From the human T2T-CHM13v2.0 reference genome, Homo sapiens: a DNA stretch of 64,000 bases. Shown in pieces: positions 22,051-54,925 of the stretch (position 1 is the first letter of the stretch; each line of letters opens with the position of its first letter). The translations under genes were made by a program, and so were the position numbers. The stretch is from the NCBI RefSeq assembly GCF_009914755.1, contig NC_060942.1; one strand, given 5' to 3'. Below the pieces are notes generated by a model, which was not told the origin of the DNA, did not search any database, and was given only the letters and a program-made list of their open reading frames with translations.

Positions 22051-23846
22051 TTTTTTTATTTTTATTTTTTATACTTTAACTTCTAGGGTACATGTGCACA
22101 ATGTGCAGGTTTGTTACATATGTATACATGTGCCGTGTTGGTGTGCTGCACTCATTAACTCATCATTTACATTAGGTATAGCTCCTAATGCTATCCCTCC
22201 CCCCTCCCTCACCCAACAGGCCCCAGTGTATGACGTTCCCCTTCCTGTGTCGAGTGTTCTCATTGTTCAATTCCCACCTATGAGTGAGAACATGTGGTGT
22301 TTGGTTTTTTGTCCTTGTGATAGTTTGCTGAGAATGATGGTTTCAGCTTCATCCATGTCCCTACAAAGGACATAAACTCATCCTTTTTTATGGCTGCATA
22401 GTATTCCATGGTGTATATGTGTCACATTTTCTTAATTCAGTCCATCATTGATGGACATTTGGGTTGGTTCCAAGTCTTTGCTATTTTGAATAGTGCCGCA
22501 ATAAACATACGTTTGCATGTGTCTTTATAGCAGCATGATTTATAATCCTTCAGGTATATACCCAGTAATGGGATGGCTGGGTCAAATGGTATTTCTAGTT
22601 CTAGATGCTTGAGGAATCGCCACACTGTCTTCCACAATGGTTGAACTAGTTTACAGTCCCACGAACAGCTTAAAAGTGTTCCTATTTCTCCACATCCTCC
22701 CCAGCACCTGTTGTTTCTTGACTTTTTAATGATCGCCATTCTAACTGGTGTGAGATGGTATCACATTGTGGTTTTGATTTGCATTTCTCTGATGGCCAGT
22801 GATGATGAGCATTTTTTCATGTGTGTTTTGGCTGCATAAATGTCTTCTTTTGAGAAGTGTCTGTTCATATCCTTCACCCACTTTTTGATGGGGTTCTTTG
22901 TTTTTCTCTTGTAAATTTGTTTGAGTTCATTGTAGATTCTGGATATTAGCCCTTTGTCAGATGAGTAGATTGCAAAAATTTTCTCCCATTCTGTGGGTTG
23001 CCTGTTCACTCTGATGGTAGTTTCTTTTGCTGTGCAGAAGCTCTTCAGTTTAATTAGATCCCAGTTGTCTATTTTGGCTTTTGTTGCCATTGCTTTTGGT
23101 GTTTTAGACATGAAGTCCTTGACCATGCCTATGTCCTGAATGGTATTGCCTAAGTTTTCTTCTAGGGTTTTTATGGTTTTAGGTCTAACATTTAAGTCTT
23201 TAATCCATCTTTAATAAATTTTTGTATAAGGTGTAAGGAAGGGATCCAGTTTCAGCTTTCTACCTATGGCTAGCTAGTTTTCCCAGCACCATTTACTAAA
23301 TAGGGAATCCTTTCCCCATTGCTTGTTTTTGTCAGGTTTGTTGAAGATCAGATGGTTGTAGATGTGTGGTATTATTTCTGAGGGCTCTGTTCTGTTCCAT
23401 TCAGCTCTATCTCTGTTTTGGTACCAGTACCATGCTGTTTTGGTTACTGTAGCCTTGTAGCATAGTTTGAAGTGAGGGAGTGTGATGCCTTCAGCTTTGT
23501 TCTTTTGGCTTAGGATTGACTTGGCAATGTGGGCTCTTTTTTGGTTCCATATGAACTTTAAAGTAGTTTTTTCCAATTCTGTGAAGAAAGTCCTTGGTAG
23601 CTTGATGGGGATGGCATTGAATCTATAAATTACCTTGGGCAGTATGGCCATTTTCATGACATTGATTCTTCCTATCCATGAGCATGGAATGTTCTTCCAT
23701 TTGTTTGTGTCCTCTTTTATTTCATTGAGCAGTGGTTTGTAGTTCTCCTTGAAGAGTTCCTTCACATCCCTTGTAAGTTGGATTCCTAGGTATTTTATTC
23801 TCTTTGAAGCAATTGTGAAGGGAGTTCCCTCATGATTTGGCTCTCT
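22051..23846 (-). mobile_element. 5'-truncated L1PA5-like LINE-1 (1.8 kb), sense to the host gene
   Basis: ORF2 C-terminal peptides (ORFs 23274..23765, 22761..23126, 22437..22739); 3' UTR ttctagggtacatg...catttacattagg; poly(T) head; TSD ctttatt at 22044-22050 and 23847-23853. Confidence 0.95.
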
Positions 23847-25278
23847 CTTTATTAAAATAACTATTAAAGAATCATTTTAGCCACTGGAAAGTGAACAAAA
23901 AGGATAAACAAGATGATATAAAAACAAAAATGAATGAGAAATGTCAACAAATATATGTATTGATTGTGAAAAATTATTATTTAAAAGTGAAACTAAGGCA
24001 CCAGATAACTATTTTAAAAATAGGACAAGTGTAAAGATGTTCAATAGTAATTTATTTTTTGCAAAAATATGTGTAATGCTCAGGAGGACAGTAGAAAAAC
24101 TAAATAATTCCAGATTAATTTAAAATGTCTAGAATTATCTAAACATGTTTTAAAACTAGTGTCACTAATTAGGCTTATCATAATACTATGTTTAAAAAAT
24201 AAGCTCCACTGCTGCCTAAAAAATAAAGACTGGGGACTAAACCACTCAAAAATTTGAAAATAAACATTAGTGCAGCAACAGTAATATCACAAAATATAAT
24301 TTAATGAGAAAATCATGAATAAGAAACAAGGTAAAAGTAGATAATAAAAGAAAACAATTCAACAAGAAATGAAATATTTATTTAAGTCAATGTCTCTGAC
24401 TATGTATTTTCAAAATATGTAATAAAATTGCAGAATTATAAGAAGCAATTCACAAATCAACTATCAGACTCCTATCGGAACATCATAGGACAGGAAATAG
24501 GATAGATAGGTAGCAGGTGTATATAGCAAAACTATACCCGAAAAATTTCAGTACCAAAACCCAACAAGGATCATCAAATTGAAAAGTCTTACTTAGTACT
24601 AAACTGAAAAAATTACACACACACACATAGCTACAAACAAAATTGTGAAATTTCAGAACTCTTAAGAAAAGAAAATTCTGAAGTTCCCAGAGAGAAAAGA
24701 CAAATTATTTACAAAGAAATTATATCCAAAATGTCATCAGATGTCCTACCAAGCAAAACTGAATAAGAAAACAATAAAAAAACCTTCAAATTAAGGAGAA
24801 AAATTGACACTGGATCCAGAATATGACACGGAGATAAGCCTGGTTGAGTGGATTCAATAGAGAATTAACTGTGAGTTCACAGAAATAGACGTGTTTATTT
24901 TTTAAAGTTTTGCTACAAAAAAAATAGAAAGAGATGAGTTACAGGACTAAGGTTTATTTTGTGTTTTCATACTTTATAAAATGAGCAATATTATGCAAAG
25001 CTCATGGGCTGCTAAAGATGAATAATGATTCATGGGAAAAAGGATATACTCGTATTGTGTACCAGTAAGCTGGTAAGAGATTGAGATAATTCTCATTCAT
25101 TATATCTATACTCCCTATGAAGAGGATGATTAGTTTAAATTGAGGATAATATGGTTATTAGGAGTCAAGAGAGGGAGAAGATATAAAACAGTCATCAGAA
25201 AAGTGGAATTGTCTAGAAATTTCTTGGTCGTGCTGAATATCACTCAAGATTTATGGTCACAGAATTTAAGTTCTACTC

Positions 25279-52260: not shown

Positions 52261-52562
52261 TAAAATTGATTGAATAACATTTTTATTTTATGCCTAAACA
52301 TAAAACTTCAGCATTTATATATGGAATCAAATTTTAGCATTTATATACGGAATATAGGCTTTATTCTATCATATACAAAACAAACACAGCAACTAGAAAA
52401 TGACTGAATTTACCAACCTTCTAGCATTTATCCTTTAGAGAATATTACTATTAGCAACAAATACTGACAGTATTTAATACACAGAAGTTACCTCTAAATG
52501 CAGACTGTGAAGTACAAGAAATCTGCTGGACAATATGGAACGATAATATATATAAAATTAAA

Positions 52563-54925
52563 GGGATGCAAGGCTGGTTCAATATACGCAAATCAATAAA
52601 TGTAATCCAGCATATAAACAGAACCAAAGACAAAAACCACATGATTATCTCAATAGATGCAGAAAAGGCCTTTGACAAAATTCAACAACGTTCATGCTAA
52701 AAACTCTCAATAAATTAGGTATTGATGGGATGTATCTCAAAATAATAAGAGCTATCTATGACAAACCCACAGCCAATATCATACTGAATGGGCAAAAACT
52801 GGAAGCATTCCCTTTGAAAACTGGCACAAGACAGGGATGCCCTCACTCACCACTCCTATTCAACATAGTGTTGGAAGTTCTGGCCAGGGCAATGAGGCAG
52901 GAGAAGGAAATAAAGGGTATTCAATTAGGAAAAGAGGAAGTCAAATTGTCCCTGTTTGCAGATGACATAATTCTATATCTAGAAAACCCCACTGTCTCAG
53001 CCCCAAATCTCCTTAAGCTGATAAGCAACTTAAGCAAAGTCTCAGGATACAAAATCAATGTACAAAAATCACAAGCATTCTTATACACCAATAACAGACA
53101 AACAGAGAGCCAAATCATGAGTGAACTCCCATTCACAATTGCTTCAAAGAGAATAAAATACCTAGGAATCCAACTTACAAGGGACGTGAAGGACCTCTTC
53201 AAGAACTACAAACCACTGCTCAATGAAATAAAAGAGGATACAAACAAATGGAAGAACATTCCATGCTCATGGGTAGGAAGAATCAATATCGTGAAAATGA
53301 CCATACTTCCCAAGGTAATTGATAGATTCAATGCCATCCCCATCAAGCTACCAATGACTTTCTTCACAGAATTGGAAAAACCTACTTTCAAGTTCATATG
53401 GAACCAAAAAAGAGCCCACATTGCCAAGTCAATCCTAAGCCAAAAGAACAAAGCTGGAGGCATCATGCTACCTGACTTGAAACTATACTACAAGCTACAG
53501 TAACCAAAACAGCATGGTACTGGTACCAAAACAGAGATATAGATCAATGGAACAGAACAGAGCCCTCAGAAATAACGCCGCTTATCTACAACTATCTGGT
53601 CTTTGACAAACCTGAGAAAAACAAGCAATGGGGAAAGGATTCCCTATTTAATAAATGGTACTGGGAAAACTGGCTAGCCATATGTAGAAAGCTGAAACTG
53701 GATCCCTTCCTTACACCTTATACAAAAATTAATTAAAGACGGATTAAAGACTTAAATATTAGACCTAAAACCATAAAAACCCTAGAAGAAAACCTAGGCA
53801 TTACCATTCAGGACATAGGCATGGGCAAGGACTTCATGTCTAAAACACCAAAAGCAATGGCAACAAAAGCCAAAATTGACAAATGGGATCTAATTAAACT
53901 CAAGAGCTTCTGCACAGCAAAAGAAACTACCATCAGAGTGCACAGGCAACCTACAAAATGGGAGAAAATTTTCGCAACCTATTCATCTGACAAAGGGCTA
54001 ATATCCAGAATCTACAATGAACTCAAACAAATTTACAAGAGAAAAACAAAGAACCCCATCAAAAAGTGGGTGAAGGATATGAACAGACACTTCTCAAAAG
54101 AAGACATTTATGCAGCCAAAACACACATGAAAAAATGCTCATCATCACTGGCCATCAGAGAAATGCAAATCAAAACCACTATGAGATACCATCTCACACC
54201 AGTTAGAATGGCAATCATTAAAAAGTCAGGAAACAACAGGTGCTGGAGAGGATGGGGAGAAATAGGAACACTTTTACACTGTTGGTGGGACTGTAAACTA
54301 GTTCAACCATTGTGGAAGTCAGTGTGGCGATTCCTCAGGGATCTAGAATTAGAAATACCATTTGACCCAGCCATCCCATTACTGGGTATATACCCAAAGG
54401 ACTATAAATCATGCTGCTATAAAGACACATGCACACGTATGTTTATTGCGGCACTATTCACAGTAGCAAAGACTTGGAACCAAGCCAAATGTCCAACAAT
54501 GATAGACTGGATTAAGAAAATGTGGCACATATACATGATGGAATACTATGCAGCCATAAAAAATGATGAGTTCATGTCCTTTGTAGGGACACGGATGAAA
54601 TTGGAAATCATCATTCTCAGTAAACTATCGCAAGGACAAAAAACTAAACACCGCATGTTCTCACTCATAGATGGGAATTGAACAATGAGAACACATGGAC
54701 ACAGGAAGGGGAACATCACACTCTGGGGACTGTTGTGGGGTGGGGCGCGGGGGAGCGATAGCATTAGGAGATATACCTAATGCTAAATGACCAGTTAATG
54801 GGTGCAGCACACCAGCATGGCACATGGATACATATGTAACTAACCTGCACATTGTGCACATGTACCTTAAAACTTAAAGTATAATAATAATAATAATAAT
54901 AAAGAAACACACACACAAAAAATAA
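52563..54925 (+). mobile_element. 5'-truncated L1PA3-like LINE-1 (2.36 kb), RT to C-terminus of ORF2, disrupted
   Basis: ORFs 52694..53503 (LFADD RT motif) and 53821..54681; frameshift near 53495; 3' UTR with G-tract; (TAA)n/A tail; 11-bp TSD ataaaattaaa at 52552-52562 and 54926-54936. Confidence 0.96.

What the first reader, a model, noticed from the sequence alone, without database searches (positions are those of the whole stretch)
22768..54179. 197-bp perfect gene-conversion tract between two inverted L1 copies of different subfamilies 31 kb apart
Seen: the reverse complement of 22768-22964 (minus L1PA5-like copy) is identical to 53983-54179 (plus L1PA3-like copy) over 197 bp. By hand count the flanks differ at 10 of 162 bp on the L1 5' side and 13 of 181 bp on the 3' side (about 6-7%). 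At that divergence a given 197-bp stretch would be mismatch-free with probability of order 1e-6. Inside the tract both copies encode [14 protein letters not shown]...AAKTHMKK, whereas the L1 ORF2 consensus as I recall it is [14 protein letters not shown]...AAKKHMKK, so they share at least three non-CpG substitutions. Each copy keeps its own TSD pair and subfamily character on both sides, and the exons between them stay colinear. Inference: non-reciprocal ectopic gene conversion, not a net inversion. The gccaaa motif suggests the younger copy was the donor.
Basis: partly seen in the sequence, partly recalled or inferred. Interest (0 to 1): 0.85.

Follow-up and report, generated by a model that had tools for sequence, protein, structure and literature searches.

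The report
Gene conversion between two L1 copies
Two old, inverted LINE-1 fragments 31 kb apart in an intron region of CCDC178 share a 197-base identical patch that one copied from the other, a well-supported but ordinary example of ectopic gene conversion between dispersed repeats.

Summary
The reverse complement of 22768-22964 equals 53983-54179 over 197 bp. The two L1 3' fragments otherwise differ at 132 of 1818 aligned columns, and the next longest clean runs are 67, 53 and 51 bp.

Among 367 pairs of other genomic L1 copies with at least 100 substitutions, none reaches 197, but the maximum is 182.

The stronger evidence is shared rare variants in the patch. A 30-mer spanning two of them occurs 3 times in the 3.1-Gb assembly, against 8637 copies within 2 mismatches. 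The third carrier differs at 13 patch positions. So the 197-mer exists only at these two loci.

The best reading is non-crossover ectopic gene conversion, with a tract of 82-197 bp, that happened late in the younger copy's life.

Donor direction is unresolved. The subfamily names were not testable. The older copy's target-site duplication (TSD) is only 7 bp.

TE-TE gene conversion, including L1, is already in print. This is a new instance of a known kind, of modest interest.

The parts
22051..23846 (-). Copy A: older, 5'-truncated L1 3' fragment (ORF2 C-terminal part, 3' UTR and A-rich tail seen as T-run at the low end)
   Evidence: It aligns to copy B at about 93%. Its translation matches B's ORF2p-like frame, with 3 stops in 286 codons. 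Its nearest genomic relatives over the 3' flank are 93-94% identical. It carries rare states at 54 of 1609 flank columns.
22044..22050 (.). Copy A candidate target-site duplication, low-coordinate copy (CTTTATT)
   Evidence: This is the only exact repeat of at least 7 bp between the two flanks of A, and no 15-mer matches within 2 mismatches. The TSD is short and therefore weak.
23847..23853 (.). Copy A candidate target-site duplication, high-coordinate copy (CTTTATT)
   Evidence: It lies directly next to the first base of L1 homology.
52563..54925 (+). Copy B: younger, 5'-truncated L1 3' fragment, extending about 540 bp further 5' than A, with an A-rich tail
   Evidence: Codons 53743-54600 are open (286 aa) and match human L1 ORF2p residues 964-1249 at E = 2e-186. 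Its nearest genomic relatives over the 3' flank are 96-97% identical. It carries rare states at 32 of 1609 flank columns.
52552..52562 (.). Copy B target-site duplication, 5' copy (ATAAAATTAAA)
   Evidence: 11 bp exact, or 15 bp with 1 mismatch, against 54922-54936.
54926..54936 (.). Copy B target-site duplication, 3' copy
22768..22964 (-). Converted patch in copy A (maximal extent, 197 bp)
   Evidence: Identical to 53983-54179 after reverse complement.
53983..54179 (+). Converted patch in copy B (maximal extent, 197 bp); corresponds to ORF2p residues 1044-1108
54041..54122 (+). Minimal tract in B coordinates (82 bp), spanned by the shared rare variants 54041G, 54051G, 54071T (CpG-type) and 54122C; equals 22825-22906 in A
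   Evidence: 54041G is in 0 of 25 A-like and 0 of 18 B-like copies, 54051G in 0 of 25 and 0 of 18, and 54122C in 0 of 27 and 0 of 19. 54071T is in 6 of 26 and 2 of 19.

Best explanation
Two L1 fragments inserted independently, at different times and in opposite orientation, 31 kb apart. Much later a DNA break in one of them was repaired using the other as template. This was homologous repair without crossover, for example synthesis-dependent strand annealing, within one chromatid or between sisters or homologues. Repair copied between 82 and 197 bp, including the private mutations the donor had accumulated. Because the outcome was non-crossover, the 28.7 kb between the copies was not inverted. 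According to the supplied annotation, that interval holds CCDC178 exons.

Shown: the identity, its bounds, the rarity and uniqueness of the shared variants, and the different ages and ends of the two copies.

Inferred: the repair mechanism, the non-crossover outcome and the timing.

Not resolved: which copy was the donor.
For: (1) There is a 197-bp exact match inside a 92.7% identical alignment. The next longest runs are 67, 53 and 51 bp.

(2) The empirical null is as follows. None of 367 pairs of other L1 copies with at least 100 substitutions has a run of 197 or more. The same columns are never difference-free in 136 + 408 unselected pairs, and the patch is not less variable than its flanks.

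(3) Both copies share 54041G, 54051G and 54122C. Each is absent from 25-27 relatives of A and 18-19 relatives of B that were chosen by flank similarity only. Both also share a CpG-type 54071T.

(4) The 30-mer over 54041 and 54051 has 3 exact places in the whole assembly, against 8637 within 2 mismatches. The third place (contig 2) differs at 13 patch positions and lacks 54071T and 54122C. The 30-mer over 54122C has 105 exact places against 15399 within 2 mismatches. Any exact 197-mer must contain the first 30-mer, so the 197-mer occurs exactly twice.

(5) From the flank rates, 0.044 coincident identical rare states are expected in 197 bp, against 3 observed (P = 1.4e-5). In the 1609 flank columns, 0.36 are expected and 1 is observed, at 53735.

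(6) Outside the patch each copy keeps its own character. A carries the A-like state at 5 of 7 diagnostic sites and B carries the other state at 7 of 7. Three A-like states (53956, 53973, 53978) lie within 27 bp of the 5' edge.

(7) The copies have different 5' truncation points and different flanking repeats.

(8) The kind of event is in print. Passages of PMC1920257 describe L1-mediated gene conversion as break repair and an intra-chromosomal L1 conversion. Passages of PMC6598467 and PMC8230782 cover conversion among Alu and other TEs, with rates depending on distance and identity.
Against: There is no outgroup or second haplotype, so the pre-conversion state was never seen.

The run alone is less extreme than a uniform model says, because unrelated pairs reach 182 bp.

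Each shared variant taken singly recurs in other copies. Among the 28 copies nearest to the tract it is found in 3, 10 and 16, and one of those copies carries two of the three.

In a faster alignment, 54041G appears in 2 of 26 A-like copies instead of 0 of 25. This reflects alignment ambiguity in an A-rich run.

Flank identity of about 93% is low for efficient homologous repair.

Copy A's TSD is only 7 bp.

Assembly correctness could not be checked with reads.
Confidence: 0.9

Rival explanations
1. Chance plus lineage: the two copies simply escaped mutation over these 197 bp, and the shared variants were inherited from a common L1 sub-lineage or arose independently.
For: Long clean runs are commoner among real L1 pairs than a uniform model predicts. 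Seventeen other pairs of 903 reach 197, and the maximum is 182 among pairs with at least 100 substitutions. Each variant taken singly is recurrent: 105 exact places for the 54122C 30-mer, and many one-mismatch places for the other 30-mer.
Against: All 17 long-run pairs have 90 or fewer substitutions, against 127 for A x B. The two-variant 30-mer is in 3 of 8637 copies, and the third carrier is unrelated in the rest of the patch. None of 28 + 27 + 19 sampled copies carries all three rare variants. A sub-lineage would also share flank variants, but the flanks differ by about 7%. P(at least 3 coincident rare states) = 1.4e-5.
Confidence: 0.02
2. Assembly or polishing artefact: reads of one L1 were used to 'correct' the other, creating a false identical patch.
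For: The reads could not be examined here. Repeats are where polishing errors occur.
Against: Inference only. Both fragments are 1.8-2.4 kb with unique flanks, far shorter than the long reads used for such assemblies. An artefact would have to change several bases in one block with sharp edges and leave the flanks untouched. No tool here tests this.
Confidence: 0.04
3. Both copies were converted by a third L1 copy that carried the haplotype. That donor is now lost, or absent from this genome.
For: It cannot be excluded from one genome. L1 breaks can be repaired from various endogenous copies (Tremblay et al. 2000, seen only as cited and summarised in PMC1920257).
Against: No third carrier exists in this assembly. 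It needs two events with identical end points within a few bases, instead of one event.
Confidence: 0.03

Closest known systems
Non-allelic (ectopic, interlocus) gene conversion between dispersed Alu elements
   Same: A short patch is copied between nearby repeat copies of different subfamilies. It is recognised by shared non-diagnostic mutations, and its rate depends on distance and identity (passages of PMC6598467; passages of PMC8230782).
   Different: Here the partners are L1 ORF2 fragments. They are 31 kb apart, which is further than the <10 kb range where the cited Alu work saw elevated rates. They are in inverted orientation, and the conversion does not change any subfamily-diagnostic site.
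L1-L1 gene conversion as double-strand-break repair (Tremblay, Jasin and Chartrand 2000, mouse cells) and the intra-chromosomal conversion inferred at locus NCLI34 (Sen et al. 2007)
   Same: An L1 copy is patched from another L1 copy on the same chromosome. Tracts can be short (passages of PMC1920257).
   Different: Those are a cell-culture assay and one complex insertion locus. This is a germline-fixed patch in a reference genome with both partners identified. Tremblay et al. was not held. I saw only its citation and a one-sentence summary.
Non-allelic homologous recombination between inverted L1s giving inversions (TE-mediated rearrangements)
   Same: The substrate is the same: inverted L1 copies tens of kb apart (PMC9675761, search listing and abstract only).
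   Different: No inversion is present. By the supplied annotation the exons between the copies keep the gene's strand and order, so this is the non-crossover outcome.

Membership tests
Ectopic (non-allelic) gene conversion between repeats | A patch of identity bounded on both sides by normally diverged sequence, beyond what copies of like divergence show | tested here: met
   The run is 197 bp, against a next-best of 67 bp. None of 367 matched pairs reaches 197, and their maximum is 182.
Ectopic (non-allelic) gene conversion between repeats | Shared derived variants inside the patch that other family members lack | tested here: met
   Three variants are absent from 25-27 and 18-19 unselected relatives. 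The two-variant 30-mer occurs in 3 of 8637 copies, and the third carrier is unrelated.
Ectopic (non-allelic) gene conversion between repeats | The partners are independent insertions (own ends, own target-site duplications, own flank variants) | tested here: met
   The 5' truncation points differ. B's TSD is 11-15 bp, while A's is only 7 bp and therefore weak. The flanks differ by about 7%, with subfamily-type states kept.
Ectopic (non-allelic) gene conversion between repeats | The pre-conversion state is seen at the orthologous locus in an outgroup or another haplotype, which also gives donor and date | not testable with these tools
   Only this one assembly is held. The tool states it has no relatives here.
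L1 (LINE-1) ORF2 3' fragment | Sequence homology to L1 ORF2 protein; 5' truncation; A-rich tail; TSD | tested here: met
   B's 286 aa match residues 964-1249 of solved human ORF2p at E = 2e-186. Pfam gave no family at E <= 0.001 for the same 286 aa.
Subfamily labels L1PA5 (copy A) and L1PA3 (copy B) | Match to the diagnostic positions of the named subfamily consensus | not testable with these tools
   No repeat-family library is on hand, and I built no consensus. Only relative age is shown. A's nearest relatives are 93-94% identical and B's 96-97%. Rare-state rates are 54 of 1609 for A and 32 of 1609 for B.
NAHR inversion between inverted repeats | The intervening segment is inverted, and hybrid repeat copies carry one partner's sequence on one side of a single switch point and the other's beyond it | tested here: not met
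   Each copy returns to its own states on both sides of the patch, so there are two switch points, not one. Exon strand and order come from the supplied annotation only.

The most novel reading that the evidence does not exclude
The conversion is recent enough to be specific to the human lineage, or still polymorphic. It has created about 200 bp of perfect inverted identity, near the length recalled as the minimum for efficient mammalian homologous recombination. That identity lies between two L1s that bracket CCDC178 exons, so carriers of the converted allele would be more prone to a 31-kb exon-inverting rearrangement than non-carriers. The timing part rests on there being zero differences since the event. 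This bounds the event to the last 25-38% of copy B's age (95% bound).
Probability: 0.15. Interest if true: 0.45.

Novelty: new member of a known kind. Interest (0 to 1): 0.3.

Why it matters
This is a clean case with both partners identified, and it shows three things. Old L1 fragments at about 93% identity and 31 kb apart still exchange sequence. Such exchange moves private mutations between copies, which distorts divergence-based dating and subfamily calls. Inverted repeats inside a gene can recombine without crossover. It also gives a practical lesson for scans of this kind. A long perfect run between L1 copies is weak evidence on its own, because real copies reach 182 bp by chance. Genome-wide counts of the shared rare variants are what make the case. 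It does not open a new question.

Tried and rejected
(1) Donor direction.
- I looked for subfamily-diagnostic sites in the tract and found none: 0 of 7 diagnostic sites lie there.
- Two partly informative sites lean towards A as source. 54072G is in 15 of 26 A-like against 6 of 19 B-like copies. 54078T is in 26 of 26 against 8 of 19.
- The number of departures from each sample's commonest state leans towards B as source. The Poisson probability is 0.14-0.16 for B against 0.033 for A.
- The net result is unresolved.

I could not tie it to any informative difference.

(3) A recombination-hotspot 13-mer, recalled from memory. It has 2 matches in the window, at 35117 and 49443, neither in or next to either L1. 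Eight of 100 shuffles gave at least 2 matches. It is not informative.

(4) Pfam on B's 286 aa gave no family. The solved-structure search gave the identification instead.

(5) A second conversion patch. One further shared rare state sits at 53735/23212 (0 of 20 and 0 of 25), flanked by differences 4-5 bp away. This agrees with the 0.36 such coincidences expected by chance, so I make no claim.

(7) Loci for the relatives of B's flank could not be cut out in full. I used short stretches instead, so B-like copies are known only for the patch plus 60/20 bp.

(8) Two papers were not held.

(9) Searches for this locus in print. 'CCDC178' with 'LINE-1' gave 0 papers. The general searches listed nothing on this locus. 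Subscription journals and supplements were not searched.
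Full report
**1. The observation**

The window holds two L1 3' fragments in opposite orientation.
- Copy A is 22051-23846 on the minus strand.
- Copy B is 52563-54925 on the plus strand.

The repeat finder reports the pair as inverted arms. 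The main arm is 1113 nt at 94% complementarity, 22341-23453 against 53494-54606. The reverse complement of 22768-22964 is identical to 53983-54179 over 197 bp.

A global alignment of the homologous parts has 1818 columns, of which 132 differ (120 substitutions). The longest clean runs are 197, 67, 53 and 51 bp. The patch has no CpG. Of the 120 substitutions, 14 are CpG-type.

**2. How unusual is the run?**

Random placement of 132 differences in 1818 columns gives a run of at least 197 in 4 of 200000 trials. That null is too kind, so I took real copies from the same genome.
- The T set is the 28 copies nearest to the patch.
- The A-like set is the 29 copies nearest to A's 3' flank.

I compared all pairs with at least 1500 aligned columns: 903 of the 1711 possible pairs.
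- Seventeen other pairs have a run of at least 197, all with 90 or fewer substitutions.
- Among the 367 pairs with at least 100 substitutions, none reaches 197 and the maximum is 182.
- A x B has 127 substitutions.

So the run alone is worth about p < 3e-3, not 1e-6.

For the specific 197 columns, no pair is difference-free: 0 of 136 A-like x A-like pairs (mean 14.6 differences, minimum 4) and 0 of 408 A-like x T pairs (minimum 3). These counts are again restricted to pairs with at least 1500 columns. Diversity in the patch (0.068) is not below that of the flanks (0.062 and 0.053).

**3. Shared rare variants**

This is the decisive evidence. I used samples chosen without regard to the patch.
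- A-like copies were chosen by A's 3' flank. Of the 29, 27 matched the patch region.
- B-like copies were chosen by B's 3' flank. Of the 20, 19 matched.

| Shared state of A and B | A-like copies | B-like copies |
|---|---|---|
| 54041G | 0 of 25 | 0 of 18 |
| 54051G | 0 of 25 | 0 of 18 |
| 54122C | 0 of 27 | 0 of 19 |
| 54071T (CpG-type) | 6 of 26 | 2 of 19 |

In a faster alignment, 54041G scores 2 of 26 in A-like copies. The site lies in an A-rich run where alignment is ambiguous.

Whole-genome pattern counts give the following.
- The 30-mer over 54041 and 54051 has 3 exact places, against 8637 places within 2 mismatches.
- The third place, on contig 2, differs from the patch at 13 positions and lacks 54071T and 54122C.
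- The 30-mer over 54122C has 105 exact places, against 15399 within 2 mismatches.

Among the 28 copies nearest to the patch, none has all three variants and one has two. Every exact 197-mer must contain the first 30-mer, so the 197-mer occurs only at these two loci in this assembly. The similarity search agrees: 40 of 967 candidates were scored, two were 100% identical, and the next best were 98%.

From the flank rates of rare states (A 54 of 1609, B 32 of 1609), 0.044 coincident identical rare states are expected in the patch, against 3 seen (P = 1.4e-5). In the flanks 0.36 are expected and 1 is seen, at 53735.

**4. What the two copies are**

B's codons 53743-54600 are open and match residues 964-1249 of solved human L1 ORF2 protein (8sxt and others) at E = 2e-186. 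The patch corresponds to residues 1044-1108. It differs from the solved protein at four residues:
- 1063, K to R
- 1066, N to K
- 1073, A to V
- 1090, K to T

The same stretch of A has three stops. Pfam gave no family for the stretch.

A is the older copy.
- A's nearest relatives are 93-94% identical and B's are 96-97%.
- A departs from the commonest state of its relatives at 74 of 1609 flank columns. B departs at 48 of 1609.

The two samples differ consistently at only 7 sites, so the subfamilies are close neighbours. A has the A-like state at 5 of 7 of these sites and B has the other state at 7 of 7. None of the 7 lies in the patch. The names L1PA5 and L1PA3 could not be tested.

B has an 11-bp exact flanking repeat (15 bp with one mismatch). 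A has only 7 bp. The 5' ends of the two copies differ by about 540 bp.

**5. Mechanism**

The pattern is an identical patch that carries one copy's private mutations, with each copy returning to its own states on both sides. Three A-like states lie within 27 bp of the 5' edge. This is the signature of non-reciprocal copying: gene conversion without crossover.

A reciprocal exchange would not make the copies identical. A single crossover between inverted copies would invert the interval, and by the supplied annotation the CCDC178 exons between the copies keep the gene's strand and order.

The tract is at least 82 bp (54041-54122) and at most 197 bp.

There are no differences since the event. 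If both copies mutate at B's flank rate, the 95% upper bound on the time since conversion is 0.25-0.38 of B's age. Absolute ages would rest on recalled subfamily ages, so I do not give them as results.

The repair pathway is inferred from established knowledge of homologous repair. Nothing here tests it.

**6. Direction**

Direction is unresolved. Counts of departures from each sample's commonest state favour B as donor. The Poisson probability is 0.14-0.16 for B against 0.033 for A. The states at 54072 and 54078 fit A-like copies better. Each line of evidence is only a few-fold.

**7. What is known**

The literature I saw is as follows.
- Passages of PMC1920257 describe L1-mediated gene conversion in break repair. 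They cite Tremblay et al. 2000, with tracts as small as 13 bp, and infer an intra-chromosomal L1 conversion at one locus.
- Passages of PMC6598467 review non-allelic conversion among TEs. Rates depend on distance and identity, and are elevated within <10 kb for Alu.
- Passages of PMC8230782 describe 98 Alu conversions in primates, running in both age directions.
- A 2026 preprint lists gene conversion among the processes that blur old L1 histories (one passage).
- No paper in the library holds both 'CCDC178' and 'LINE-1'.

The event is therefore a new, well-documented instance of a known kind.

**8. Limits**

- Only one genome was available.
- No reads could be examined.
- No repeat library was on hand.
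- The B-like sample covers only the patch plus 60/20 bp.
- The samples are the nearest relatives by similarity, not random draws.
- Supplements of the cited papers were not opened.

Noticed in passing
window 53743-54600 (+) and 22347-23204 (-): Copy B keeps an unbroken 286-codon frame across the ORF2 C-terminal part. The same stretch of copy A has three stops, one of them immediately 3' of the patch.
   Followed up: partly
window 53735 / 23212: A and B share one further rare state outside the patch (0 of 20 A-like and 0 of 25 T-set copies). Differences lie 4-5 bp away on both sides. This is compatible with chance, since 0.36 such coincidences are expected.
   Followed up: partly
L014 (G000 contig 2, about 119.33 Mb) and L030 (contig 6, about 95.41 Mb): These two L1 copies on different chromosomes differ by only 20 substitutions in 1814 columns and share a 476-bp exact run. 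They may be siblings from one source or another conversion or duplication.
   Followed up: no
G000 contig 7 at 105472929, 105529359 and 105596157; contig 16 at 32.5-34.3 Mb; contig 3 at 148678575 and 148688326: Places carrying the 54122C 30-mer cluster on the same strand or region. This suggests the L1 copies were multiplied by segmental duplication rather than by independent mutation.
   Followed up: no
window 35117-35129 (+) and 49443-49455 (-): There are two matches to a 13-mer recalled as a recombination-hotspot motif, both between the two L1 copies. Eight of 100 shuffles give at least 2 matches.
   Followed up: no
L026 and L029: Each has a second, weaker match to the L1 3' part directly downstream of the first (91% and 77% identity). 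These are adjacent partial L1 copies.
   Followed up: no
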